Source of the DNA: Sarea resinae
Taxonomy: Eukaryota
Assembly (NCBI GenBank): GCA_026026165.1
Contig: JAPEUD010000036.1
Location: 62,001-126,000, forward strand
Reading direction: 5' to 3'
Length of the DNA: 64,000 nucleotides
The notes beneath the pieces are model-generated. The model saw nothing but the letters and a program-made list of their open reading frames with translations, ran no database searches and was not told the DNA's origin. Below are positions 15,030 through 31,742 of this stretch, piece by piece (within the stretch, counting starts at the first letter, position 1; each line of letters opens with the position of its first letter). The position numbers were made by a program, and so were the translations under genes.

Positions 15030-18000
15030 ATGAGGAGAGCTTTGGTATGTAGACCACCCCCAGAGAACTCACGACGAGGCCACTTACGAACTCTCTGTGA
15101 TCAGTTTTCTTTCAGACCGTTTATTATGCCTAGAACGTGGAAGCCAGACCCCTTGGCGGTGCCGTCATGGCGGACCGCAACTGCCGGGCCACCGATCCCA
15201 AATAACAAATCATACTCGACCGCGCAGCAAGATAGACTCTGGGAAGATTCTCCCAATGGCAACTTAGCGATACCTAATGATAGTCAACCTAGAGAAGCGC
15301 AGCATCCTGGCAGCCATCCACGGACGGCTCACGCCTGGAAACCTCATCCTCAAGCCGGCGGAGGGCAACACGCGCCGGCTGCTCGGGGTGCCGGCAGAGG
15401 ACGAGGTGGGCCTCCCCTTTCGGGAGCACAGGAAATACTTGCGCGAAGACCGAAACGCAAAGAGACATCACCTGCTCCACCACGACCGGCCCAACGCGCG
15501 CGACATGGACCACCTCTTGATCTGATGGATGAACCGTATATACGACGCCACTTCAAGATACCCACCGCTGCGGAGTATCCTGGAGCGCCGCAAAATCTGG
15601 CAATCCAGCCTCAGGTAGTGCTTCGTAAGGTGGGGGGTGGTGCTCTCAAGATCAAAGGAAGGGTTACCACTCTTCCAAGGGGTAATTTCAAATACAATAT
15701 CACCTGCCAAATTCCTGATAGGGAACCAGTCATCGTCCACGGAGAGGGAAATAGTCAGGTATGCTTCTGATTCTATTGAGCGTCAACGGTCTACTGACTT
15801 CAGTCATAGAAAGCTGCCGAGAAAGCCGCCTTCTTGCGCCTACTTGCAGACTTCCATGAGTCTGGCATTCTTAAAGAGATCTTTCACGACGATCCTTCAG
15901 ATGAAGAGGTCGATCAACAGACATTACAAGACGAGGCCGATGCTAAGACAGACATCTATAACTACGCGGCTCGATTTGACCTAGTGCCACAGCTAACCGT
16001 GCGGCCAATTTTCCGACCCTTCCGAGCAAGGGGTAAGAAGTTGATTGAGGTCTCAATTGAGCTTCCAGACCAAGGAATAAAGGTAGCGGGGAGGGCACTC
16101 AACTTGAAGGCTGCGGAAGTTGGTGCGTCTATTCGGTTCAAGCAAGAGGCCGAAAAATACCACGCGGAGCATGGTGACAGCTCTCTTGTCATCAAGGATT
16201 CTACTACTATCAATTCTTCGAACGTCAAGAAGTTCTTTGAATTTTATCAGATACACCATAAGGATGCCAAGTTTGAGACGGATACGAAGCGGGTGACTGG
16301 TCTCAAGCAGTTTGGGTCTATACCATACCGTTCTCAGGTCCTCATGAACGGAGAGCCTATTGGGGAACCCGTTGATATGATTGCCCAGAAGAAGGCTGAA
16401 GAGCTGGCATATCTTACCGCTGCTATTGCCCTGAAGAAGATGGAGCCAGACCTGCATCACCAATTCGCCCGTGCCCTCCAAGCCGGCAATGGGGAGATTT
16501 TGAAACCAATCCCGCCGATTACTATGCCTGTCGATATGGACTGCGTCCTTGTTATGCGCGAGACACTTTATGAGACGAGGACTGCGGGCCTCCCAGATGA
16601 AGCCGAAGAGATATTGTCGGACGAAGAATTAGAAGAAAACAGGAGGGTACGGCCGCGACCAAAGCTTTCTCCTGCTGCGATTCAGAGAAAAAATGAGACG
16701 CTTCTCCAGAAGCATCAGAAATACCTGGAAGATCCGAAATTGGAAGAGATGAGGAAAAAGAGGGAAGAACTTCCCATGAACCATTACCGAGCCAAGGTCA
16801 TCGATATCGTGGAAAATAACACCTATAGCATTATCGTTGGAGCTACCGGAAGTGGTAAGACCACTCAAGTGCCTCAAATCTTGCTTGAGCATGCAACCTC
16901 CGCAGGGAGTGGAGCAGCATGTAACGTCGTTTGCACTCAGCCGCGAAGAATTGCCGCAATATCAGTTGCAAATCGAGTTGCCAACGAGCGTAACGAGCCT
17001 CTGCAAAATTCCATCGGCTATCAGGTCCGGTTTGACTCGAAAATCCCTCAAGCTGGAGGCAGTGTCCTATACTGCACCACTGGTATTCTATTGAAGCAGC
17101 TTCAATCATCTCCAGATGAGATTCTGGATGGCACATCCCATCTCATCATCGACGAAGTTCACGAGCGCGACATACTAATTGACTTTCTTTTAATTATACT
17201 CAAGAAAGTCATGACAGACAGAATAAAAATTGGAAAGCACGTACCTAAAGTGGTTTTAATGAGCGCAACCATGGATACTGAACTCTTTGCCGGGTACTTC
17301 AAGCAAACTTCGCCTCATGGCAAGCTCGTGGGATGCCCCTCACTCAGTGTACCAGGACGAACATTTCCTGTACAGGAAAATTATCTAGACGGGATCCTAG
17401 AGACCCTCAACAAGTCATACTCGAAAAATGAGCTGCAAGTGATGAACTCCGACCCACCAACCCGGGAATTCATTGCATTCGAGAATGCGTTTCGATCCTC
17501 TTTACCATCTAGCAACCAAGGAACGGCCACTCCTGAGGAGGCTGGATCCGATGCTGAAGCGACCATTGACTGGAAGCGCGAACGTATTCTATCCGCAGAA
17601 GGGGAAATGGCAATCTCAAATGAGAAGGAGGATGCATGCATTCCTTTTGGGCTCATCGCCACCATCATCGCCCATATTACCAAGGTTAGCGAAGAAGGAG
17701 CTATACTCGTATTCTTGCCAGGCTTGGACGAGATCCTCAAGGTCGACGATATCTTACGTCGTCTGCGTCCTCTTGGAGTGGATTTCAAGGATGAGTCAAA
17801 ATTCAAGCTTCAAATGCTGCATTCATCAATCCCGGCTGGCCAGACAGACGTCTTCAATCCTGTTGCGAAGGGTTGTCGTAAGGTCATCTTGGCTACCAAC
17901 ATCGCAGAGACCTCTATCACTATACCAGACGTCCAATATGTTGTGGATTCCGGCAAGCTTCGGGAGAAGAGGTATGACCAGATCCGACGCATCACGAAGT

Positions 18001-19460
18001 TGCAATGTACCTGGGTCAGCAAGTCGAACTCGAAGCAGCGAGCTGGTCGTGCAGGCCGTGTCCAGAACGGCAACTACTACGCTCTCTTCTCCAAGCCTCG
18101 CTACGAATCTCTACGAGCCATCGGATTACCGGAAATGCTACGCTCAGATCTCCAAGAAATCTGTCTGGATATCAAGGCTCAAGCTTTCAAGGCTCCCATT
18201 CGAGATTTCTTGGCCGAAGCTATTGAGCCTCCATCCGCAAAAGCAGTTGATGCCTCCGTTAACAACCTGCAAGCACTAGAAGCACTGACGGAGGACGAAA
18301 AGCTCACCCCGCTTGGCCGGCTCCTAGCCTCCCTTCCTGTTCATCCTTCTCTCGGCAAAATGATCGTCCTAGGTGTCCTCTTCCGCTGCCTCGATCCCAT
18401 GCTCATCCTCGCCAGCGGCTCTAGCGATCGTAGTCTCTTCGTCAGTCCCATTGACGCTCGCAGACAGGCAACAGAAGCGCGTCTTGCCTTTGTAGAAGGC
18501 ACAGGGAGCGATCATATCGCCATGATCAACGCCTTCCGTGAAATGCGCCGCATCCGCGAAGAAAAGGGCCAAGGCGCCATGGTTGCCTTTGCCCACCAGA
18601 ACTTTATCCACATGGGCGTCTTCAAACTCATCACGCAGGTCGCCAAACAAATCGAGGAGATCCTTGTCGAAGCCAAATTGATTCCTTACACCCCCATCCA
18701 CGAACGCTACAACTACGAATTTGGTCCTCCAGACCTCAATCGCTTCTCCTCGAAGATCCCACTCATCAAAACCCTCGCGCTGGCAGGCCTCTATCCTAAC
18801 CTGGCCGTTAATGCCGGCGGTCGCAGTTTCCGCACTCCGGGCGAGAAAGGCTGCATGGTGCATCCATCGTCCATCAACTATCTTCGCAGTGCCGGTACCT
18901 TTAACAACTCCCATGCCTCCGAAGAGGATAATAAGCATCCTTACGGTACCCTTTTCGCCTACAGCACCATGGCGCGCTCCAATGACGGGCGTCAGACTTT
19001 CCTCCGCGACACCTCCACCTCCACACCTCTAATGGCTACCTTGTTCGGCGGTCGCCTACGCAATCCCAGCCGCAATATTCTTGAAATGGACGGCTGGCTC
19101 CCCTTCTACGTCCGTGGCGACGACACCCGAGCGGTCAAGACGATCGTCGAGTTCCGCAAGGCGTTGGACCGCCTGCTTACGGGCGCCTTCCGAGACTTGA
19201 GGGATCTTGGCAAACCGCAGGGAGGCAGATGGGGGGACCGGAGCAGGATGCAGAGGGAGAAGAGAGGAGGCTTCGGCGGCGCAAGTTGGCGGAATGGGAA
19301 TGCGAATGGATATGATAATGAGAGCGATGACGGCCAGGGACCAAAGTATCTCGCGGACGAGAAGGCTAGGGACCTGTTCAGTCAGGGCTTGGTCGAGGTA
19401 TTGGATCGCGATGTTAGAGTTCGCGAGGGCATTGCCAGACGCGGATGGCGACGACAGTAG
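15030..19460 (+). CDS. DEAH/RHA RNA helicase, DHX30/DHX36/DHX57-like, with N-terminal dsRBD-like repeats
   Basis: GATGSGKTTQ, TQPRRIAA, DEVH, MSAT, ATNIAETSITIPD, QRAGRAGR, HA2/OB regions; intron 15759-15809 joins the two ORFs in frame. Confidence 0.93.
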
Positions 19461-20272
19461 TAAAACGTCTGTTTCTATAGGTCTATCTCTGGCTGTCTTT
19501 TGGCTTTCTCAGTGTTGTGGTACTTTCTTAATATACATGCATGTCCCCATTTTCATCCTCTTCCCATATGTGCCTTATCCTTAGACTCAGGGCTGAGGGG
19601 TCTGTCGTGCAACTCTGGTGGATTCATTTCTCGTCTGCTTCTATCTTCTCTTTCTAGGTTCGTGCCTGGATTGGAGACAAAAACATCGGCTTCTATCCAT
19701 CCCTGCTGATTCATCGAAGCTATTAATTCGATAGAGAAGGAAAGCGGAGACTTGCTCTGTCTTCAAGTCTTTTAGCTTAGCTATCGCATTTCTAGACTAT
19801 CTACTTGGCTAGCCACTACTATAGTGATATTCACTTAGAATTCAATGTGCAAGATACGTCTCGTTCTCTAGCTAGTACTTCTTGCTGCTGCTCAGTTCCC
19901 TGGATATCGAGTGAATTTGAAGTAGGCAAACAGGAATGTAGTGAATGAGTGAGTGAGTCATGTGTAGGTAGGCTACATATACCTTTCCATGGCAAGACTA
20001 CTTAAAGGTGCGTCCTTCCTGCACCACCTTCTTATCATTTTCAATAACTTACAACCTCATACATCTGTAAGGTCCAGTAAATAGGCAAACCTGTTCCTAC
20101 ATGCGCCAAAAAGACGACTATAGCTTGGTACATCCGGGCTGTGCCTAGGTGTTTGCCTACTATATAGCAGCGCTCCTCACATCATAGGGCTAAAGTTCAC
20201 CGATCCTTATTGGTACACAGTGTAATACTGCTGACTACCTACCTAGCCAGATACTTGTAGCGCAACAGAATA

Positions 20273-21920
20273 GTGTCAAATGCCACTAGCTTTGTGCTAC
20301 TCTTGCCGCACCTCGAATTAAAAATGCAACAACGGCTAAATATGGTCATTCGAGGCCCGACAAGCGCCAAAAATCTTCCCCTCTCTATTCCCTGCAGAGC
20401 CCTTATAATTCTCCTAAGGCGTGGATATCTCGAGGATCACGACATGCTCGAAACGCTGATGAGTGGTAATGAGCAAGACATAGCCATCCTACCTGCTGCT
20501 TAGCATCAGCCGATTTTTCTTGCCGCGACAGCTCATGGACTAGGACTATCAGGATGCCCTAGGAGTGCAAAGTCTTCGACGGGGTATCTAAACATACAGG
20601 CTACGTGGGCCGGGTATCCTCCTAAAACAAACATGTACTTATAGAGGAGGAAGGCAGGAACAAACGTTGAGAGAGCTGCAGGTATTTGCAAAGAAAGTTT
20701 ATTCATGGCACACCAGACTCGCTCTATGGTCTGTGAGAAACATTACGATCAAGGCCTATACGACTTCGATGTCATAGGTGTAGCATTTGAAGGTACTAAT
20801 AGCCGTGGCTTAGATATCCTTAAACAAGAGTTATTAGAAGCAGTACAACGTGCAAAGCTAGTGAGGGTCAGTATAGATAGAGACCTTATTATTAACGCAT
20901 TTGGTACAATACTATGCGGAAGTGCAGGCGGCAAAAGCAGAAAGCAGCAAAAGGGCACTAAGACAGGCAAAGAGAAGAGTGAAGCAGGCAGCCTTAAAGG
21001 CTGTGTTAGCAGAAGAGGTTGCCCTATAGCGGAAGCCGCGAACTCTACTAGAAGTACAAGAGCGGCTAGAAGAACTGCAACGCTTGTCTGAGATACTAAA
21101 AAAGATTGCAGCAAGAATAGACAAGGATGCTATGACCTTGGGCTAAGATAATACGCAAGTCGAAGAAGATATGGATGAGACTTCGGCAGGTGACTAGTTC
21201 CGGGATGTTGAAGTCTCCGGCAGCCAGACGCCGTGAGCAAGAATACCGGAGACAGCATCCCGAGGTACGCCTTTGAAGCAATATGCCCTCGAAAAGATGA
21301 CAGTACTGATTGCTGATCCACTCCTCGCTCAGGCCCTACCAAACACCGAAAACGCTGTCGAGAATGAAGACGGCGCTAGCCATAGAGAGGAGCACGAGGT
21401 TGAAGTTGATCCGGACGAGCATCCATGGGAGCACAGCACAGCATAAACAGAGCTAAAGAGAGTTAACACAAATGTGATCGAAAACCTAGAAGAATGGCGC
21501 AATCTAGTGTTGAAGTTTATAACGCTTATCCTAGAGCTATCGAGTTTATCTCTAGACAGGACCTTCAGGTGCCAGCTATGCTAAATGGACCCAGACGCAT
21601 CAACGGAAAAGAAAAAAGAGCGGGATTGGGTATTCCAAACCCAGCTAGACTACCACGTGAATAGCTTATACCATTCCCTATTTTTGGCCCTTCGCCGCTG
21701 GCTGAAGAAAGAGCAGCAGGAGACCAGAAGTTTAACATGCCCCTTTGGCTATATAAAGGTCTACAGGCAAATGTCTTATCTAATTCGACATCCAAGCCAA
21801 AATACTAATACAACAAATATCTGCATTATACCCTCTTCAGCCACCACTCACCTACATTTCAAGACATTTACTGGTCTTAGACCTAGCTCGCTACCTATGT
21901 ATACCTATACAGTTTCATAA
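20273..21920 (+). pseudogene. DUF3435-like tyrosine recombinase with coiled coil and C2H2 zinc-finger tail
   Basis: Same frame through TAG 20501 and TAG 20642: LSIPCRALIILLRRGYL..QPIFLAA..AGYPPKTNMYL*RRKAGTNVERAAG..FMAHQTRSMVCEKHYDQGLYDFDV. Frameshift near 20903-20916; six further stops (21027, 21144, 21195, 21234, 21444, 21582); then CQLC..HVNSLYH and CPFG..LIRH. Confidence 0.7.
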
Positions 21921-23199
21921 GCTGATAAAGGGCGATTCTATAGCGAAAGGGCCTTTCTACATTGAGAGTTATTCCTAAGGTAAAGTGAGTGCACTAGTGA
22001 TGGTAAACAACTCTTATCCAGTATTTTACAATCTAAGGTATCTCCTACCGGTCAGGAAAGTTCGTCAAAGAAGAAATGCTTCCTTGAGACTATACCATGA
22101 AATCGGAAAGAGGGAAGCTGGCTGGTACAGCGAAGATTTCTTCCCCGGTAAAACGAGTCGAGGAGCCGCACACATAAAGCGAAGGACGTGTGTGCTAGGG
22201 GAAGATGAGATGAGCGATGGACCGTGGGAATTGAAAGCCAGCACCCCAGCTAGAACTGCCGGTGCACCATACCTGGAGGGGTTGGCTGTCTTCGGACCTT
22301 CTCCAGGAGGAACGCCAGGAGTTCATAACCTCAGCCTAGAGGTCAATGCAAAGGCCCTCCGCCAAGATCTTGGCTCAATTCCAGTTCCAGATGACGCTTT
22401 ACATCTGTCTTATAAAGCCGACGCTAGTCTGCCTCTTCCCGCGACTAGTCCTCCGCCTCCGTATGTTGAACAACCATCTATGGCTCAGTATCTCTTACCT
22501 GAGAACACATGTCCGCCATATTTCGATATTGAGGGTGAATATGCGCCTAGTCAGTCCTCTCGCATCTTATAAGCACTCTAGACTGGATGAGCAGCTGTCT
22601 TTACTTTGGTATGTCGTTTTCAGAGAGTAATGCACTACTGGAAGCAGAAGCAGCGACTATTTTGATTTCTTCAGGATTTTCGCTGCAATTCCTGGCAACG
22701 CCATGTAATGGCTGACCTTGACATTGATGTGAACAACGTCGAGAACGGACAAGTTGAGCTGAGGCTCATGATGCTAGGGCCGCCTGTAAAGAATACGGAA
22801 GAGAGCAGCGGGCCGATACTGCCCGGCCCTCCGTTCCCTCTCAGCGAGCGGTTTCTAGACATGATCGCGTTGATAATCCTCTACCCAGGAAGCATCCTCT
22901 CGGCAGATGCGCTCCAAGAGCGTATTGAGAGCCGTAAGATGAACCCTCTGCTGAGAAAATTCATCAGCAGAAACCTGGAAGCGATCGTCGCGGAAGCCGA
23001 AAAGCAGCAGGAAGAGCTCAACGGCCAGAACAGAGAAGGTTGCACGGTAACCTTGAAGAAAAGAAAGTAATGCCTTGTTGTGGCAATCAACCCGACTCCC
23101 AGCAAACAGTTCAAGTGGTCCTTGTGTTCAGGGCAGAGATTGGCGTTATCTAATAGTAGCTGACTCTGCAAAGGAGCGGCCCCTAAAAGCAATAGCAAG

Positions 23200-25500
23200 A
23201 TGCAGAATAAGGGGTGGTTAGTGCAAGTCAGAGAAGACCTTCTTATAGAAGGGAAGGTTGTAGCAATCATGGAAAACAACATCAAATATCCAGAAGAATT
23301 TGATGGTGTGGTAGAACATGGGAGTGATCGTTCGACCGATATTCGGCTCCACGACGGCGGAAAGACACTCTTATGGAGTGACTCGACTTGCGTCTTTCTA
23401 TAAGTCGATCGACTTGGACGAGACTCTCCTGCTTCTGCAGGATCTGAGGGATGACGCGCCTCTTTTGCCGGAAACCAATCTCGACTTACAGACGATTTTG
23501 GTTGATGGCATCGCGGCTAAGAACCTCCCAATGATGTCTCTTGACGCCAGCGAGTCGACACCGAATATTCCGGATCGTTGGGCATGCAATGAGCAGCAGA
23601 AGGCAGCCATTAGGCTGGGCCACTCTGCGCCTAGCGGAGTCGCCATTGTTCATGGCCCACCCGGAACCGGAAAGACCGCGACAGCAGCGAAGCTGCTCCT
23701 CACTCTGGTCAAGGCCAATCCGGCGAGAAAGATACTCTGCTGCAGTGTGATGAACAAGTCGCTGGAGCAGCTGCTAAAGCAGACAGCTGCCATCTTTCAG
23801 TCCGAGAAAACGACCCTCAAAGCAGTCCGCATCTGGAATTAATCGCAGATTGGCCAGCGATTGACTCTAGGGGCCACTACGACAATGCATGGTACCATAT
23901 CCTTCGACATCGACCAAATCAGAGCTCGGCTGGCAGCCAAGACCAAGCACTAGTAGAGTATGGAGTTTATTATACTAAGCTCACTACTATTAGAAGAGAG
24001 CGGCATTTCAGACCCTAAGATAGCTAAAGCATATAGGTTCGATGTCAATAGATTGAACCATTTAGTCATAGCCGAGGCACAAATCGTGTTTTGCACTTGT
24101 TCGATTGAGCAAGGGGAGTACACTGTCAGACCGCGAATACAATGAATATAGTAACCGATTTGTACAGTTCCTTGCACTCCTTATAATAAGAAGAGATAAG
24201 TCTGCAAAAGATCTTAACAGGCGCCTGTTAATAGAGCTACTACCTGCGCACCGACGACAACGAGATGTTAAAATGCAGGATAAGAGATAGAAGGTAGTAC
24301 TACAGAAGTACTAGAATACAACTGTGGTCTGAACCACTACATGGCTAGCAACCGCTAGTAGGGATAGGATAACAGCTAGAACGCAAGCCTTGACGAGGTC
24401 ATATCGTTTGAAGCAGACTATCTCCTCATCGACGAGGCTGCATATTCGAAGCATCCCGATATAATTCTTCCGTTGATGACGCAGCCAAAAGTGAAGATGC
24501 TGTACCTGACAGCCCGAGGCGACCATAAGCAGCTCGGGACAGTCCTGTGCACGGCAGCGGCACAACAAACGTGGGATCCGCCTTTGATGAGCCAATTGAT
24601 TCGGAGAGGATATTCAACGGTGCTGTTAGATATCCAATACCGTTCTCTCCCTGCCCTGTATGGGCACACGACACGGAACTTCTATGATAACCTCCTCAGT
24701 TCACATCCGTCGACACATGGGAGAAAATTCAAGATAATGTTTCAAAAGAACTTAGCATCAATTAAGCTGAGAAACGGTAACGAAAAAGTTGTCGAGTTGC
24801 GAAATGCCTGGGGGCATTTCATTGATATTTCTTACGGGCAATCAGTAACAGAAATGAGCACAAGTAACAGCTCAGAGGCGGAAGCAGTGAGCGTACTTGT
24901 CCAAGGACTCCTGAGTACAGGCATGCCATCAAGTAGGATAACAATCCTGGCGCCCTATACCGAGCAGGTCGACCTGATTCATACTCTTGCAAGGAGAGAC
25001 AGCTGGACGTTGCCTCGACCTCGAAGTCGAACGTCTGAGAATCTTCTCATTACCAACTGAGCCAGTTATGAGCAAGAGCAAATCTAGCCTTCAGTCACGT
25101 CTTCGCTGGTCACGCGTCAACGTTGGGCTTTGTAAATCCATGAGCTGCAAGTTATCAGAGTCACGAATTTTCAGTTGCAAGTCATCACAGTCACAGATCA
25201 CGAGTCACGAGTCCTGCAATCAAGTTGACTACTAGTATCACTGCGAGTCACCATAACGTGTGACGTCTCATCTGCTGACGCAGTCTTCGGGCAGTAAAAT
25301 GATATCATTGTATTTTGCTTCACAAGGACCCAGGGTAGGCTGGCCTTCCTCGCCTCAGATCGCCGCATAAATGTGGTAACCTCGAGGGAAAAGGAGGCCT
25401 ACTTTGTAGTCAGCAATTAGGACTACATATCTTCTGTCAAGGAAGACAACCCTTGTTGGGAAGTCGTGCAAGACATCAATGCCCATGTCGAGGGTTATTG
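23200..25500 (+). pseudogene. Upf1/DNA2/Nam7-like superfamily-1 helicase (AAA_11/AAA_12)
   Basis: Q motif NEQQKAAI, GPPGTGKT, IVFCTCS, LLIDEAA, GDHKQL, LDIQYRS, NSSEAE, ILAPYTEQV, SADAVFGQ*NDII, FLASDRRINVVTSRE; several stops plus an insertion. Ends approximate. Confidence 0.88.
25011..25255. mobile_element. 245-bp insertion, solo-LTR-like, with 4-bp target-site duplication ACGT
   Basis: ACGT at 25007-25010 and 25256-25259; removal restores the helicase frame (SWT-CDVSSADA); termini TG...TA; internal GTCAC repeats. Confidence 0.75.
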
Positions 25501-26229
25501 CATCACTATCAAGCATGGCATAAAACAATAGTCTACATCCGGACTGATCAGTGGGAGCCAGATCCTGCTGTACAGCCCGAGGACAAGATCTATAGCAAAA
25601 GTTGAGCTAGGGACACTAAGCGAGGTAGCGAACAGATCAACGTCGCTCAGCCAATTTTCAAGAAGCAGAGCAGCGACAGCGAGAAGCATTAAAGAAGCAG
25701 CAGCAGGAGCTCTAGAAGAGTATCCTAGCCAAAATCAGAGCTGTGAAGGTAAATGCAAGGGTGGGCGCTATCCGAGAACTTTGCAGCCGGCAATCTGGAG
25801 CGCAAGAAACGAACAAAGGCGCGCGCAATAAATAGCATGATTGATACATTGTCTTATAGCAGCAGTATTTAGATTCGGATATGCAAGATACTAGACCTTC
25901 TCAGCTAGCTATTAAATACTGCATTCTAGAGTAGTAGTAAGTGACTAGCGGCTTAAGTTTAGCATTTTCCATGTACCGCCGTCAAAAGAAGCCATTTGTC
26001 TGTCTCCACTGTCCGTTCGTTGTCCACCCATCATCCATGCATGCATCACTCACATACACCATCATCATCTATTCTATAGATCTCCAATCCCACACAAAAT
26101 CCCACACAACGCACACACCTCTCTCTCCCTCTCTTATCAAGGAAAAAAGGGCTATTCCCTACCCAATCAATCAACACCCAGAAAAAAAAATAATACCCGC
26201 CACGAATGGAGCCAAAAAGATAAGAGTCC

Positions 26230-26328
26230 TGGACGATCGGGGAATCGAACCCCGGACCTTCCGCACATCCATTTAGCTAGAACCTCTAGCGATGCGAAGC
26301 GGACATTATACCCCTAAACCAATCGCCC
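26230..26328 (-). tRNA. tRNA-Ala(CGC) with 27-nt intron (26266-26292)
   Basis: GGGCGAT/ATCGTCC-A acceptor stem with G3:U70, anticodon arm TCCGC-TTCGCAT-GCGGA, T-loop GGTTCGATTCC, downstream T5 Pol III terminator. Confidence 0.96.
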
Positions 26329-26674
26329 GGTGGACGGAAGATCTGGCGGTTTATGGTGGATATGACTCAGGGGGAAAAGTAGTGGTGGGTGGTGGGTGGT
26401 GCGAGGTTGTGTAAGCGAGTGACTAGCTGGGTACTTTGCAGTACTTACCTATCTACTGTACGTGTGGAGTTCACTGGTCGTTGTTTGTGTCTAGTAGTGA
26501 ATAATAGAGTACTCCGGGGCTTGGTACAGAGTAGAGGAGGAAGTAAGTACCTCTGTATACAGACAAAGTGTCGTTCTTTGTTATTGTGTACTCGGAGTAC
26601 TCCGCGAAGATAATGATAGGTTAGTAGTGCATCTATAAGGACAACTCTATATAGTAGCGCTCCTTACAAGGGGA

Positions 26675-26702
26675 GGAAGGAAGGAAGGAAGGAAGGAAGG
26701 AA
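26675..26702. repeat. (GGAA)n microsatellite
   Basis: About 7 units, directly visible. Confidence 0.9.
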
Positions 26703-27113
26703 AAAACAAAATCACAATTCAAGGTCCTCAGATTGTTCGTTGCCTCTAGTATGCTGGTCTAGAACGAGAACAGTAAGACTACAACATTTGCTATCGGTAA
26801 TCGATTTTGTTTGTGATCCGTTTCAGTGATTCCGCAAAGCGACCCAGCCTAGCCCAAGTTCCAGCTAGCTAGCTAGAGCATCAACACAGTGAAAATGAAG
26901 CCGATGGATATTGCTTTGCTTCTGTGGTACTGATCCCGCCTTTTGCTTTCGCTTTGCTCAAGGCGGTGCCTCTTTTCGACTTTTCCATGCCTTAAATTAA
27001 ACCCCAGTCTGCTTTTCCTATATCTTTCCTCGACTCCAAACGACGGCCAATTCGAGCCCCCTTCAGCAACAGTGCTGACCGACCACGCCAGCTAAACGGC
27101 TTGTAAATCAGAA

Positions 27114-28757
27114 TCAGGCCGAAACACTCAGAACCCACGCATCACCCAGCCGTTCATTCTTTGAATCGACGCCGCCCCAGAGGAAGATAGACGAGGGATC
27201 TACATCGGCGTCCATGGCAGAGGCGAACCAGCCGCGTGCTCCAGGACCCTGAGCTCCCTTCTTTCCCGTCTCCGGCTCGTGAGGCGACTGACTGACATCG
27301 TCGGGACCGGCATCTTTCTTGTCAACGTCGAGGAGTTTATCATTTGTGTCTGTTTCACTGCCTTCACTGCCGCCGCCAGCAATCCTAACTCTGGCCCATT
27401 TCGCCTCGTCCTTGGCGCCGAAAATCCACCTGGCAGCATCCTTCCATCGTGCAGCCGATGCGGCGCCCCGGGTCGGCAGCTGAAAGCACCACACGTCGTC
27501 CCAGAATGCGCCGGCAGCATCGTGGCCGAGGGAGCGCGGACTGGGGGAGCGCTCGCCGAGGAAGAGGACGAGGTAGGTACGGCCTTGGCCTGTGGAGAGG
27601 ACGTGGAGACCGGCGACACTTCTTGGGCCTGGGACATCGGTTAACGGGGGTGGGGGCGGGGTATCATTGTCTTGGGAAGGAGTTGTGATCGTAGTTGTAA
27701 CCTTATCAGGAGAAAGCTGTGTTGGGCTGAAAACAAATGATTTCCATTCTGCCGTCACGGGCTGGAGGAGAAGGAAGGGAACAGCGTCTCCAGCACCATC
27801 ATTTTCATTCCTTTTTGCTGCTGCGGCTGCGGCCGCTACCGGCCCGCTACTTGAAAAGGGTTCCAAAACATCCAGTTGGCCTCCCAATTCGCTCTGCCCA
27901 TCGAATCCACCAAATCGATACAGCCGCTCTTGCGCAGTCACCAGGCTCGTGCCGCCTCTGGCCGAGCCAGGCGCATCTGCAAACCTCACCCAGACGCGCG
28001 ATGCGAGGTCCAGAGCCCATAGGTCGGACAGTCGCCCTGAAGACGGACACCCGGCGTGAATAAAAAGCGTACCATATTCCACAGCGGTAGCGAGGTGCTC
28101 GCCTGAGGTTTCGGCGGCCGTGTCTTCGCTCAGATTGAACTGGAGCGAGAATTTAAGGGCGCCTTGCTGGTGTTTGGGGTTGGGAGGATACTCCGTAGCG
28201 GCTGAGGCATGATATGAGCGGGCAGGCGGATAGGGTGAGCCCGGCGCAGGATCCAAGTATGACCAGGTTCCCGTGCCAGTGTCGAAGATCCAGACACGGC
28301 CGTGCTCTTCAAGCGGCTTCATATCTTTGCCGCCGCGGCCCCCAAAGACAAATATGCGGTCGCCGATGACGCTGGCGGTATGGCCTACTCTTGGAGCGGG
28401 GAGTTGCTCTTCTTCTTCTCCCTTCGTCCCAGGGTGGTTGCTGTTGATAGATGAGGTCTCAGTGACTGCAGAGACACTGCGGTAGTCCGCGTCCGGGACG
28501 GAGGACGAAGGCAGCGTAAAGATGTGCATGGCATTGTCGACGGGGTTGCGCGGAGTAATTTCGCCGCCGAAGACGTAAGCTCGACCTCTGATGATGGAAA
28601 GGGTGTGAGAGGAGCGAGGGAACGGCTTAGGGAGGGAGAGGGGAGTGAAGGTTGCGTGGAGGGGAAGAGTGGGGTCTGCGATGCCTTTGGCGGCGGCTGC
28701 AGTGGCTTCGACAGCCGTCTCGACGCCGTAAAGTGCCCCTGCTGTACCGGGATCCAT
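27114..28757 (-). CDS. Kelch-repeat beta-propeller protein (nitrile-specifier-like fungal family)
   Basis: Repeated PRxxH...FGG...W units (PRSSHTL..VFGGE, PRVGHTA..VFGGRGG, ARSYHAS, RFGGFDG, LWGG); intronless 547 aa. Confidence 0.9.
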   Translation of the reverse strand: MDPGTAGALYGVETAVEATAAAAKGIADPTLPLHATFTPLSLPKPFPRSSHTLSIIRGRAYVFGGEITPRNPVDNAMHIFTLPSSSVPDADYRSVSAVTETSSINSNHPGTKGEEEEQLPAPRVGHTASVIGDRIFVFGGRGGKDMKPLEEHGRVWIFDTGTGTWSYLDPAPGSPYPPARSYHASAATEYPPNPKHQQGALKFSLQFNLSEDTAAETSGEHLATAVEYGTLFIHAGCPSSGRLSDLWALDLASRVWVRFADAPGSARGGTSLVTAQERLYRFGGFDGQSELGGQLDVLEPFSSSGPVAAAAAAAKRNENDGAGDAVPFLLLQPVTAEWKSFVFSPTQLSPDKVTTTITTPSQDNDTPPPPPLTDVPGPRSVAGLHVLSTGQGRTYLVLFLGERSPSPRSLGHDAAGAFWDDVWCFQLPTRGAASAARWKDAARWIFGAKDEAKWARVRIAGGGSEGSETDTNDKLLDVDKKDAGPDDVSQSPHEPETGKKGAQGPGARGWFASAMDADVDPSSIFLWGGVDSKNERLGDAWVLSVSA

Positions 28758-31742
28758 GATTGATATTGGTTGTGATTTGCTGTTGACGAAACTCGGTGGT
28801 GATGCCGTGATACTGTGGTTCTGGGCGTTGTTTACAGCCCTTTCTTGAGGTCACAGTCGCTACGTCATAGCGGGAGCCGAAGTAAGGGTTCAGGCAAGGA
28901 TGAGGTCTGAGATAGAAAGCTGTCGAACTTTGATTGTTGTGGAAAATCCTTGCTTCTTAGAATCGTAGCTGCCAGCGAGGCTTGGCCGTTTATGTATAAA
29001 AGTGTACCATTTCGAGAAATAAATATATACTCTAGTAAGATTGACGACTTAAATCAGCTTAGTAGCTATAAGCAGTGTCTGACATTCTGGTATCTCTAGC
29101 ATAAGGGACCATTTGTAGTGAAAGCGACCTCCCCTGTCCAACAGTAGTCTATTCGAGCAATCTGTATCACCGTCTAAAACCTCCCTTGGTTGAAAATTGC
29201 ATATCGCCGTACGGGGAAGCCCAATACTCCTGCCGGCTGGAGTGCATCATGGGCTGTTTATCTTTGGGAGCGTTCTGTCCTCAATCATTACCTGTAACTC
29301 GTGTCATCTGCTGCGCTTTTAGCTACAGTGGTAGCATCGGATAGCGGAGTAGCAGATTGTCAGGTTAGGGCTCAATTCCAGATAGGCCTGGCGCCTGCCT
29401 TACTGCTAAATCTATCGCGATCCGCCATGGGAAGAAATAGGTGCCGCCTTGGAGCTGTAGTAATCCTGAAAGTTGAGAAGTGGGAGAGAGTGATACAACT
29501 CACTATTTTCAGTTTGATAGCTAATATATAGTAGAAGGACTGTGATTAGCATTTGTGTGCCAATCCCTCCGAATTCGAAGCAGTCTCCATCTGATGGTGC
29601 TCTCCTCCTAAGAAGTCAGAACGCCTCTTGATGAGAATCGAAGCAATATTGTGCAGTGCTTGCTGCTGTCAAGTGAAACAATCACACATTGAGAGAAGAT
29701 CGCAAATAGAAGCACAAGCTACATCTCTCGCACTTTTCCCCTCCGATCCACGCGATGACGACAGAGCTCAGGAACGAGAGAGAGCGTCATCAAGAAGCGC
29801 ATGCTTGCGCCAGGCCTCAGAGAGCTATTGGAGCAGCGTAGACTGGACAATGGGTTCGGAATCTCGACTCTTCCCCCTCATTCATTATCTGAGTGTCGCA
29901 CATAGATTGTCTTGCTCAGGCTTCTCATAATGCTTCACTGCTGTCCTGACCGATGGACATGCGGTCCTCAGCAATCTGAGATCAAAAACTTCGGACCGGT
30001 GTCTTTTGCTTTGAAGAATATTGCACGTGGAGAAGCCATTTATATAGACTCGTTAGACTCAGAGGCGCGAGTGTCCTCGAGCAGCGCATGCAGGTGCAAT
30101 AAAACAACATGCGTGCGCTTAACGTCTCAACTCCTCGTGCTTTCATCATAGTCTTGACCCTTGTTACGATAAATGATTGCGATTCCCGCGTAAACTCGGC
30201 GGCGTGTAACCCCTCGACGAAGATGTATGATATTTGTTGTCACGCCGTTGCCCTCGAAAGCATAATTCGGCCGCTACGTCTCGCGGTCCGAAGTCCTTTG
30301 CAACACCCACAGAGAGCTTCATCGTATAGCACATGCATTGCACCAGGCGTGCCTTTTAGAGCAGCGGACAAAGCATGCGCTGGAGGTCTCGACTCTCTGC
30401 GAGCTGTTCTAGACATCGTCCGTTGACTTTGAGGGTCAGAGTCTTTGCCCAAAAACTCTGGCTCTGTCTTGGTGGCTCGTAGCGGAGATGGTTTCCCAGA
30501 ACCGAAAGGGAAGGTGGGAAACTTATGTACGATGAAGCGGTTGAATTTGCAAAGTGACATGTAGTCACAACTGGAGAGAACTATACCAAAACTGTAACAA
30601 AGAAATCTCAACCGGCCCGGATGAGTCTATTTCTAACTTAAAAAGACGCGAATGAATATAGAAAAAAAGGAAAGATATATTGAGCGTTGTTTCTCCGTTT
30701 GAAGTTGCTCTGGCATCATCCTGTTGCTATTACAAGATTGTTGTGCAGGATGACGATAAGATGAGATCCCTTTAAACCCAAATAGAAAGAGGAGGTAAGG
30801 CATAGTCCAACATAGAATACCCTCAAGTTCTAAAACACAAGAGAGAATCTCTAGCAGCAACAAGCTACTAAGTAATCACTTCTCGAGAAGTGGCCGTCCA
30901 GTCTGACTTGGGAAGAGAGCTGACTTCTTGTTCCTGACTTACCTTAGCCTCCGTAGCTTAAACGCTGAATGTTTAGCGGCAGAGGCGGTGGAGGGCTGAG
31001 CGGGTGGCGGGCGGCGGGCAGCGGGCAGCGGGGCCTTCGGAAACATCTCCGCACCGAATCAGATCTCCTCTTGTATTCATCAACCTTATCTTATCAAGTG
31101 GGACAGATACTGCGCAGGAACCCACCCCCCGCAAGTGAGAGAGAGTAAAGAAAGCCAAACGATTATTCAAAATGAAGGGAGGTTCCACAGGTCATCGATC
31201 ATTTCAGTATTGACGGCAACCTGCTATCTGCTCTCCTTGGTAATGGGCCACTCTGGTCTGAAGCGGGAGGAGGCTCCCAAATACGAAGTATTGTAGAAAG
31301 GTGGATCCCGATCGAGCAGGACACTCTAGTCAGCTTGTTTGGCACCGTATATGCTTTACGGATAATTGGTATAACAGGGTCTTGAGATTGAAGTAACTAG
31401 ACACTGCCTACTTAAGGTATATAGAAGACCTGCAGATCAGATCCTTTTCCGTAAAACGCCATCATCCATCTTACGCCCAACCGAATGGCGCGTCTCGAAA
31501 ATTTGAATAAAAGGAAGTACGACGATCGCAACATTGAATCTCTGAACGCTTAGGAAGAAATACGCGGAATGAACGGATGAGGCAACCCCGAAATCGATAC
31601 CTGCCCGACATCATCCTTTCGTAGTCGACAGGGAGCGAGAGGGAAAACGCAGACACCATAAATCTAGACTTGAGAACCATAAGTGCACAATCGATAGCTG
31701 GACGACTACACCAAAGGGACTGCCTCGTCATTCTCGCATGTC

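What the first reader, a model, noticed from the sequence alone, without database searches (positions are those of the whole stretch)
19835..25960. Compact tyrosine-recombinase + Upf1-like helicase element: mini-Starship relic or undescribed YR element family
Seen: a ~6 kb TpA-rich island of broken frames interrupts intact housekeeping genes. The first gene, pointing inward, is a YR-like pseudogene, followed co-directionally by unknown ORFs and an SF1 helicase pseudogene. Established: Starships carry a DUF3435 YR 'captain' as first gene but are normally tens to hundreds of kb; Helitrons use Rep-Pif1, not Upf1-type helicases. Inference: either a deleted Starship or a small element whose core is YR plus an Upf1-like helicase, a pairing I do not recognise as a described class.
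Basis: partly seen in the sequence, partly recalled or inferred. Interest (0 to 1): 0.85.

Follow-up and report, generated by a model that had tools for sequence, protein, structure and literature searches.

The report
Dead recombinase-plus-helicase mobile element relic
A 6-kb stretch between two healthy fungal genes holds the broken remains of a Starship/Crypton-type recombinase gene followed by a broken Upf1-like helicase gene: an ordinary transposon fossil, with no evidence yet that the pair forms a new element class.

Summary
The island is real. A 5'-truncated DUF3435-type tyrosine recombinase (YR) pseudogene lies at 20327-21803 on the + strand, with a weak tail match to 22161. A profile of its three relatives gives E 2e-48 and 4e-18. 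It lacks the first ~150 codons, which hold the box-I Arg and the Lys.

An Upf1-like SF1 helicase pseudogene follows on the same strand at 22708-25477. It has six in-frame stops and one frameshift inside conserved blocks.

The flanks are intact: a DEAH gene, a tRNA-Ala and a Kelch gene. TpA is enriched (0.97 against 0.65), but the second classical RIP index is not met.

The claim that YR plus helicase form the core of a new element class could not be tested properly, because no fungal genome context was reachable. The one relative locus I retrieved holds an intact helicase with no YR in the 2.7 kb upstream. The helicase family is multi-copy in lichen fungi.

Verdict: a mobile-element relic and a new member of a known kind. 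The two-gene-core idea stays open at about 20%.

The parts
15810..19460 (+). Left flank: intact DEAH/RHA-type helicase gene (host gene, not part of the relic)
   Evidence: Open frame of 1216 codons. Pfam DEAD, Helicase_C, HA2_N and HA2_C.
19461..20326 (.). Spacer with no recognisable coding homology. This is where the missing 5' third of the YR gene should lie.
   Evidence: The YR profile (positions 1-149) finds nothing here in six frames with filters off. No Pfam hit. TpA/ApT is 1.19.
20066..20177 (.). Short dispersed high-copy repeat inserted in the spacer. Its left edge is sharp at 20065-20068; its right end is uncertain.
   Evidence: In run X1 the summed depth is 5080 against about 360. 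Thirty contigs cover position 20116, and 25 contigs begin to match at 20065-20068 with unlike left flanks. I read ACATC on both sides (20062-20066 and 20178-20182) from the sequence; this could be chance.
20327..20902 (+). YR relic, catalytic-domain part. It retains Y..R of the 'YAWRR' motif, with the W codon now TAG, and also 'MAH' and 'KHY'. Two in-frame stops.
   Evidence: Profile positions 150-341, 153.8 bits, E 2.1e-48. tblastn against P0277, P0278 and P0279 gives 42, 37 and 32% identity. Stops at 20501 and 20642. The ESM atlas's first hit is a DUF3435 cluster at 0.90, which is a lead only.
20889..21803 (+). YR relic, C-terminal region in the next frame (one frameshift near 20890-20900). 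It has a coiled-coil/acidic stretch and a Cys/His-rich motif (CxxC ... CP[FY]G ... H) at about 21567-21791. Six in-frame stops.
   Evidence: Profile positions 337-586, 53.7 bits, E 4.2e-18. tblastn against P0278 residues 504-579 gives 36% identity, E 6e-8. Stops are listed.
21979..22572 (+). Open frame of 197 codons that probably holds the YR tail ('HEIGKREAGWYSEDFF'). This is a weak match.
   Evidence: Profile positions 581-615 at 22054-22161, E 0.0036, 4.3 bits. tblastn E 0.43 and 0.8. No Pfam family.
22708..23301 (+). Helicase relic, N-terminal accessory region. Two in-frame stops (23068, 23161). The frame shifts before 23315.
   Evidence: Helicase family profile positions 101-220 at 22948-23301, E 1.4e-9. 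The N-terminus of P0148 matches 22951-23349. The public gene model P0122 uses 22708-23046 as exon 1.
23315..24103 (+). Helicase relic, motifs I-Ia (GPPGTGKT) up to 'VFCT'. Three in-frame stops (23840, 23951, 23954).
   Evidence: Pfam AAA_11 E 3.9e-12. Family profile positions 228-478, E 2e-40. Stops.
24104..24400 (+). Stretch rich in stops and TpA with no counterpart in the family profile: an insertion or a decayed variable loop or intron.
   Evidence: Eleven in-frame stops at 24143-24377. The profile jumps from position 478 to 491 across 297 nt.
24401..25009 (+). Helicase relic, motifs II-IV (LLIDEA, GDHKQLG, QYR). No stop.
   Evidence: Pfam AAA_12 E 8.8e-16. Family profile positions 491-691, 171.5 bits, E 3.7e-54.
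25010..25255 (+). Second stretch without a counterpart in the profile. Four in-frame stops.
   Evidence: Stops at 25058, 25085, 25133 and 25226. The profile jumps from position 691 to 694 across 246 nt.
25256..25477 (+). Helicase relic, motifs V-VI ('RRINVVTSR'). Two in-frame stops (25295, 25418), and homology runs on past the second.
   Evidence: Pfam AAA_12 profile positions 112-194, E 9.8e-10. Family profile positions 694-763, E 6.9e-17.
25478..26229 (.). Right spacer with no homology found. The right end of the relic is undefined.
   Evidence: No Pfam hit. No significant repeat with the left edge.
26230..26328 (-). Right flank: tRNA gene with an intron, read as tRNA-Ala(CGC) with G3:U70
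   Evidence: Rfam RF00005, 50.3 bits, E 1.1e-8. The anticodon is my own reading of the sequence. ARAGORN reported none.
27114..28850 (-). Intact Kelch-repeat gene (host gene beyond the tRNA)
   Evidence: Open frame of 578 codons. Pfam Kelch families, E 3.5e-31.

Best explanation
The island is the dead remnant of a small mobile element that was moved by a DUF3435-type tyrosine recombinase, the enzyme family of Starship 'captains', which is related to Cryptons.

In its working form, the recombinase (about 680-690 aa in intact relatives) would have cut and rejoined the element's ends to excise and reinsert it. This step is inferred from the family and is not shown here. A Upf1-like SF1 helicase gene lay 135-300 nt downstream on the same strand and was carried along as a passenger or accessory gene. 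This is also inferred.

Later the element lost about 450 nt or more of the recombinase's 5' end, and with it its own 5' terminus. A short high-copy repeat landed in the remaining spacer. Both genes then decayed by point mutations and one frameshift each. Nothing here can transpose or make a full-length protein today.
For: - YR identity: the single database hit of ORF 20645-21088 is P0277 (PF11917), E 1.9e-6. A profile of P0277, P0278 and P0279 gives E 2.1e-48 and 4.2e-18 on two + frames. P0277 and P0279 pass Pfam's DUF3435 cut-off at 36.9 and 39.4 bits against 25.8.
- Truncation: profile positions 1-149 match nothing in six frames of 19300-22800 with filters off.
- Helicase identity and decay. 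A model of relative P0124 (pLDDT 80) hits Upf1 best, 8rd3_A, E 3.1e-36.
- One unit: the two genes share a strand. The open frame with the YR tail ends at 22572 and the helicase ATG is at 22708. Stop densities are of the same order: 8 stops in about 1.5 kb of YR homology (20327-21803), and 6 to 7 (one of the adjacent pair 23951/23954 falls in a profile insert column) in about 2.0 kb of helicase conserved blocks. Both flanking genes are intact.
- The helicase family behaves like repeated DNA in related fungi. Three copies of 92.5-93.8% identity lie on contigs of 3.2-9.0 kb in one lichen-fungus assembly. Two loci of 92.9% identity lie in another. Three fragmentary, diverged copies lie in this genome.
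- The intact YR relatives P0278 and P0279 were seen only on contigs of at most 7.2 and 6.6 kb. That size would fit a small element.
Against: - No second locus with both genes was found.
- The only relative locus with usable flank (L001) has an intact helicase of at least 851 codons and no YR in the 2.7 kb upstream; another + strand frame lies there instead.
- None of the 29 helicase relatives whose contig lengths I looked up shares a longest-contig length with P0278 or P0279.
- In the source run the helicase part is covered by one contig, with nothing else at 80% likeness or more. There is no sign of sister copies in this genome.
- No terminal repeats, target-site duplication or empty site were found.
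- The match of the 21979-22572 frame to the YR tail is weak (E 0.0036), so the tight spacing rests partly on a weak alignment.
- Published Starship and Crypton descriptions that I searched do not mention a helicase partner.
Confidence: 0.45

Rival explanations
1. Chance juxtaposition. A 5'-truncated fragment of a single-gene, Crypton-like YR element landed in, or was left in, the promoter region of a host helicase paralogue. That paralogue belongs to a fast-turnover, lineage-specific Upf1-like family and decayed on its own.
For: - L001 shows that an intact member of the helicase family can stand without a YR upstream.
- This genome holds at least two other fragmentary members of the family on other contigs (P0126, P0148). 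Decay of these helicases therefore happens repeatedly.
- No helicase relative carries a YR domain.
- Cryptons as described carry a single YR gene, sometimes with a peptidase gene (passages of PMC3212892).
Against: - The genes share a strand, with only 135-300 nt between the end of the YR frame and the helicase ATG.
- The two relics show stop densities of the same order.
- The helicase family is present in near-identical multiple copies on short contigs in two lichen fungi, which suits mobile DNA better than a host gene.
Confidence: 0.3
2. Stump of a large Starship. The YR was the captain at the 5' end of an element tens of kb long, and the helicase was simply its first cargo gene. Deletions removed the 5' terminus and nearly all of the cargo.
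For: - The YR family is DUF3435. Captains are the first gene and point inward (passage of PMC10104507).
- Starships occur in lichen-forming fungi, and degraded copies reduced to one gene have been proposed (passages of PMC13486527).
Against: - It needs two separate deletions that spared both neighbouring host features.
- Only about 750 nt lie between the end of the helicase and the tRNA.
- The smallest catalogued Starship is 15,020 bp, but the catalogue dropped everything under 15 kb, so small elements are unsampled rather than absent (passages of PMC11162782).
- No Starship accessory gene families were seen by Pfam in the island.
Confidence: 0.2

Closest known systems
Starship elements and their DUF3435 'captain' tyrosine recombinases (Pezizomycotina)
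   Same: Two of the relic's three closest relatives pass Pfam DUF3435. The YR precedes the other gene and points towards it, as captains do (passage of PMC10104507). The host lineage is close to lichen fungi, where Starships are reported (abstract and passages of PMC13486527).
   Different: At most about 6.8 kb lies between intact host features, against at least 15 kb for catalogued Starships. The YR lacks its first ~150 codons. No ends, direct repeats or empty site were found. No known Starship accessory family was seen. The word 'helicase' is absent from the main text of the three Starship papers searched.
Crypton DNA transposons (CryptonF of fungi)
   Same: Small YR-only DNA elements without long terminal repeats. 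The ESM feature search put an NDC10_II cluster at rank 2, score 0.89 (a lead only); Cbf2/Ndc10 contains CryptonF-derived sequence according to passages of PMC3212892.
   Different: CryptonF proteins carry a GCR1_C domain. No such Pfam hit appears in P0277-P0279 or in the window frames; a Cys/His-rich tail is present instead. No helicase gene is described in Cryptons ('helicase' occurs 0 times in PMC3212892).
Upf1-like SF1B helicases (Upf1, Ighmbp2, Sen1/SETX, ZNFX1)
   Same: Pfam AAA_11 plus AAA_12. Walker A (GPPGTGKT), DEA, GDhxQL, QYR and the motif VI Arg are readable. A model of relative P0124 matches Upf1 (E 3.1e-36), Ighmbp2, Sen1, Dna2 and ZNFX1.
   Different: The closest full-length relatives are only 26-35% identical. 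The N-terminal region of about 370 aa has no Pfam family. The copy here is a pseudogene. The family is multi-copy and often fragmentary in lichen-associated fungi.
Helitrons / Helentrons
   Same: A eukaryotic DNA element that carries an SF1 helicase.
   Different: No Rep/HUH domain appears in any frame of the island or in the helicase relatives. The helicase is of the Upf1 type, not the Pif1 type. A YR is present instead.

Membership tests
Starship (captain-led YR element) | Encodes a DUF3435 tyrosine recombinase | tested here: met
   The window relic matches P0277, P0278 and P0279 (E 2.1e-48 by profile). P0277 and P0279 pass Pfam PF11917. The window fragment itself gives no Pfam hit at E <= 10.
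Starship (captain-led YR element) | Captain complete, with the catalytic residues (RKHRY pentad, PMC10104507 passage) | tested here: not met
   Profile positions 1-149, with 'G[IV]RPG' (Arg) and 'LK' (Lys), are absent. There are 8 in-frame stops and a frameshift. The second Arg, the His and the Tyr codons remain. In this clade the first His position reads Tyr (my reading of the alignment).
Starship (captain-led YR element) | Captain is the first gene at the 5' end, reading inward | tested here: inconclusive
   The YR precedes the helicase and points to it. The 5' end of the gene, and so of any element, is missing.
Starship (captain-led YR element) | Large size with cargo (catalogued range 15,020-511,117 bp) | tested here: not met
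   19461-26229 is 6.8 kb between intact host features. The range is taken from a passage of PMC11162782, which dropped all elements under 15 kb.
Starship (captain-led YR element) | Defined ends (DR/TIR) and an empty site in another genome | tested here: inconclusive
   Best edge repeat is 19835-19888 / 25869-25922, score 36, reached by 3 of 200 shuffles. Other repeats are at chance level. Only 1 of 3 runs holds the locus, and it is probably the source.
Crypton (CryptonF) | YR protein with a C-terminal GCR1_C domain | tested here: not met
   No GCR1_C hit in P0277-P0279 or in the window frames.
Crypton (CryptonF) | Short (4-6 bp) terminal direct repeats | not testable with these tools
   The ends of the relic are unknown and no second copy is available.
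Upf1-like SF1 helicase (AAA_11/AAA_12) | Both RecA-like domains with motifs I-VI | tested here: met
   Pfam AAA_11 E 3.9e-12 and AAA_12 E 8.8e-16 and 9.8e-10. Family profile E 2e-40, 3.7e-54 and 6.9e-17. Relative model against Upf1, E 3.1e-36.
Upf1-like SF1 helicase (AAA_11/AAA_12) | Intact reading frame | tested here: not met
   Nineteen internal stops in the frame 23315-25420, of which 4 lie in aligned conserved blocks. Two more lie in the N-terminal block, and the frame shifts at about 23301-23315.
Helitron | Rep (HUH) endonuclease fused to a Pif1-type helicase | tested here: not met
   No Rep family in any frame or relative. The fold is closest to Upf1.
RIP-affected region | TpA/ApT >= 0.89 and (CpA+TpG)/(ApC+GpT) <= 1.03 (thresholds recalled from the usual RIP-index practice) | tested here: not met
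   The island has 0.97 and 1.26; the rest of the window has 0.65 and 1.26. Only three 500-nt bins of the island have a positive composite index.

The most novel reading that the evidence does not exclude
The recombinase and the helicase are the conserved two-gene core of an undescribed compact (about 6-7 kb) family of DUF3435-recombinase elements in Lecanoromycetes and their relatives. Starship surveys miss such elements by design, because they discard everything under 15 kb. The near-identical helicase copies in Pleopsidium and Hypocenomyce would be its active members, and the 6.6-7.2 kb contigs that hold P0278 and P0279 would be whole elements.
Probability: 0.2. Interest if true: 0.65.

Novelty: new member of a known kind. 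Interest (0 to 1): 0.3.

Why it matters
As it stands, this is a transposon fossil in a resin-dwelling ascomycete and has little consequence. If the pairing recurs, it would show that DUF3435 recombinases also drive small two-gene elements with a helicase partner. That would widen the known range of eukaryotic YR transposons below the 15 kb floor used by current Starship catalogues. It would also give a first hint that a helicase assists YR transposition in eukaryotes. The public gene model for the helicase (288 aa) is an artefact of a pseudogene and should not be used as a protein.

Tried and rejected
- Whole genome: none is held for this window.
- Second copy in the window: blastn of the island against the window gave only self-hits. 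The tblastx step of the same script printed nothing and may not have run.
- Terminal repeats: the families scored within the shuffle range.
- High-copy repeat as a hairpin MITE: the DNA fold z-score is +0.97, so this is not supported. The 17-mer occurs once in the window.
- Runs X2 and X3 (other organisms of the same study) laid only pieces of about 36-212 nt on conserved motifs. This gives no synteny and no verdict on an empty site.
- Word-indexed protein search with the helicase at 'near' lengths gave only generic helicases.
The narrower A3 gave 2 loci. L002 holds only a 36-51 aa match and nothing else of use.
- The YR alignment found no relative in viral contigs or in prokaryote genome contigs.
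- The genome search on L001 and L002: records not held.
- Profile of the YR clade against PDB sequences: 0 hits at E <= 1.
- AlphaFold model of P0278 from 3 sequences: pLDDT 37.5, unusable, so no fold search was made.
- ESM atlas on the helicase N-terminal region: DUF6469, ZNFX1 and 1B-domain clusters at 0.86-0.88, leads only. No N-terminal family appeared in the Pfam table for P0124 or among the 25 of 49 families listed for all 24 members at E <= 0.1.
- Earlier notes of this scan: none for this genome, and none by sequence.

Full report
**What is there**

The window is fungal. Between an uninterrupted 1216-codon DEAH/HA2 helicase frame (15810-19460, +) and a tRNA gene (26230-26328, minus; Rfam 50.3 bits) lie 6.8 kb in which every long frame is broken. 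I read the tRNA as tRNA-Ala(CGC) with an intron from the sequence. ARAGORN found none. Beyond the tRNA is an intact Kelch-repeat gene.

The RIP substrate index is 1.26 in both, and only three 500-nt bins have a positive composite index. Loss of coding constraint would explain it equally well.

**The helicase**

Pfam finds AAA_11 (23315-23839, E 3.9e-12), AAA_12 (24380-25057, E 8.8e-16) and the end of AAA_12 (frame of 25061, E 9.8e-10). All three lie in one frame, which holds 19 internal stops.

A profile of 24 relatives maps onto the window as follows:

| Window | Profile positions | E-value |
|---|---|---|
| 22948-23301 (another frame) | 101-220 | 1.4e-9 |
| 23315-24103 | 228-478 | 2e-40 |
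| 24401-25009 | 491-691 | 3.7e-54 |
| 25256-25477 | 694-763 | 6.9e-17 |

Fifteen of the 19 stops fall in two stretches with no counterpart in the profile (24104-24400 and 25010-25255). These may be insertions or decayed variable regions. Even so, four stops lie in aligned conserved blocks: one in the block aligned to the family's 'VRlYSeaQI', one in motif V, one at a conserved Trp, and one of the adjacent pair 23951/23954. Two more lie in the N-terminal block, and the frame shifts once. It is a pseudogene.

A full HMMER search of 1.84 billion representatives returned the window's own public gene model P0122. This is a 288-aa product built from 22708-23046 and 23315-23839, and its 'intron' contains homologous coding sequence with stops. 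The next hits are only 26-35% identical. By the names their sources give, they come mostly from lichen-forming or lichen-associated ascomycete assemblies. All 21 relatives scanned are plain helicases with an unassigned N-terminal region of about 370 aa, and so are the 24. A model of P0124 (pLDDT 80) is closest to Upf1, Ighmbp2, Sen1, Dna2 and ZNFX1.

**The recombinase**

Pfam reports no YR family in any read-through frame of 19800-23400, even at E <= 10.

An ESM feature search of 20645-20899 gave a DUF3435 cluster first (0.90), then NDC10_II and Phage_integrase clusters. These are leads only.

The word-indexed search with ORF 20645-21088 returned a single protein, P0277 (479 aa, PF11917), at E 1.9e-6 for a database of 5.8 billion. 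tblastn of P0277 on the window gives 42% identity over 152 residues without a gap (20330-20785), plus a second segment in the next frame.

A search with P0277 found two longer relatives, P0278 (694 aa) and P0279 (678 aa). P0277 and P0279 pass Pfam's DUF3435 cut-off; P0278 does not.

A profile of the three, run with filters off on six frames of 19300-22800, matches as follows:

| Window | Profile positions | E-value |
|---|---|---|
| 20327-20902 | 150-341 | 2.1e-48 |
| 20889-21803 (next frame) | 337-586 | 4.2e-18 |
| 22054-22161 (weak) | 581-615 | 0.0036 |

Three conclusions follow:
- The YR is real and lies on the + strand.
- Positions 1-149, which hold the conserved 'G[IV]RPG' Arg and the 'LK' Lys, are missing altogether. 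The loss is abrupt rather than gradual, which suggests deletion rather than decay.

The second Arg, the His and the Tyr codons survive. The Trp codon of 'YAWRR' is now TAG.

**The left spacer**

In the probable source run, about 60-110 nt starting at 20066 are present at roughly 14 to 40 times the single-copy depth. Twenty-five contigs start to match at 20065-20068 and have unlike flanks. This is a dispersed short repeat inserted in the spacer. Its nature is unknown, and it is not a good hairpin. Apart from this and a few short low-complexity matches, the island is single-copy in that run at 80% likeness or more. The helicase part is one contig.

**Are the two genes one unit?**

For:
- They share a strand.
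- The open frame that carries the YR tail ends at 22572 and the helicase ATG is at 22708. If instead the YR ended where its relatives end, the gap would be about 300 nt.
- Stop densities are of the same order in both relics.
- The neighbours on both sides are intact.
- The helicase family looks like repeated DNA in related fungi. Three copies of 92.5-93.8% identity lie on contigs of 3.2-9.0 kb in one assembly, two loci of 92.9% lie in another, and three diverged fragments lie in this genome.

Against:
- The single relative locus with flank (L001, from one metagenome scan that gave 2 loci out of 139 pattern matches) has an intact helicase of at least 851 codons. Its 2.7 kb upstream holds another frame and no YR.
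- No helicase relative is fused to a YR.
- None of the 29 helicase relatives looked up shares a contig length with P0278 or P0279.
- No ends, target duplication, second copy or empty site could be found.

Fungal genome context was out of reach.

**Literature**

- The starfish paper states that all elements under 15 kb were discarded, and that the smallest catalogued Starship is 15,020 bp. 'Helicase' does not occur in its main text (passages).
- The Tangerine paper reports Starships and degraded copies in lichen fungi, with no helicase (abstract, outline and passages).
- Urquhart et al. state that captains are always the first gene and carry an RKHRY pentad, with no helicase (passages).
- Kojima and Jurka describe CryptonF with GCR1_C and short terminal direct repeats, with no helicase (passages).
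- Enterprise carries an unrelated DEAD-like helicase ORF, 'Uhera' (passage).
- Full-text searches for the pairing:
  - 'DUF3435 + helicase + Starship' found 3 papers. None of the two whose passages I read describes the pairing; the third I saw only in the listing.
  - 'Crypton + tyrosine recombinase + helicase + fungi' found 21 papers. Fifteen were listed, and I read passages of two of these (PMC9977147, PMC8092012).
  - 'tyrosine recombinase + Upf1-like + transposon' found 0 papers.
- Supplements were not read.
I could not check it, so it is only a lead.

**Verdict**

This is a fossil of a DUF3435-recombinase element with an adjacent Upf1-like helicase fossil.

| Reading | My odds |
|---|---|
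| The helicase travelled with a small element | about 45% |
| Chance neighbours | about 30% |
| Stump of a large Starship | about 20% |
| Other | about 5% |

It needs a survey of lecanoromycete genomes that I could not run.

Noticed in passing
window 20066-20177: A short dispersed repeat is present at about 14-40 times single-copy depth in the probable source run, with a sharp left edge at 20065-20068. I read ACATC on both sides of a 112-nt span, which may be a target duplication or chance. The element type is unknown.
   Followed up: partly
window 22708-23839: The public gene model for this locus (P0122, 288 aa) joins 22708-23046 to 23315-23839 across a 268-nt 'intron'. That intron in fact holds homologous coding sequence with two stops, and the model ends at the premature stop at 23840. 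It is an annotated pseudogene fragment.
   Followed up: yes
window 26230-26328 (minus): An intron-bearing tRNA is found by Rfam but not by ARAGORN under the tool's settings. I read it as Ala(CGC) with G3:U70.
   Followed up: partly
window 26666-26714: A (GGAA)n-like simple repeat lies beside the tRNA. The read-laying tool skipped it as a repeat, and contig cover of the source run stops there.
   Followed up: no
proteins P0123/P0272/P0273 and P0274/P0275: The helicase family has copies of 92.5-93.8% identity on three short contigs of one lichen-fungus assembly, and copies of 92.9% identity at two loci of another. This suggests recent amplification of an intronless helicase gene of about 2.7 kb by an unknown vehicle.
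   Followed up: partly
L001:699-2267: Upstream of the intact helicase relative lie two + strand open frames (209 and 312 codons). They have no Pfam family except a weak CNNM-like hit (E 0.0036). Identity unknown.
   Followed up: no
proteins P0277-P0279, alignment: In this DUF3435 clade the position of the first catalytic His ('HxxR') reads Tyr ('YAWRR' or 'YGFRA'), and P0279 has Ala-Glu after the Arg. I did not check whether this is usual among captains.
   Followed up: no
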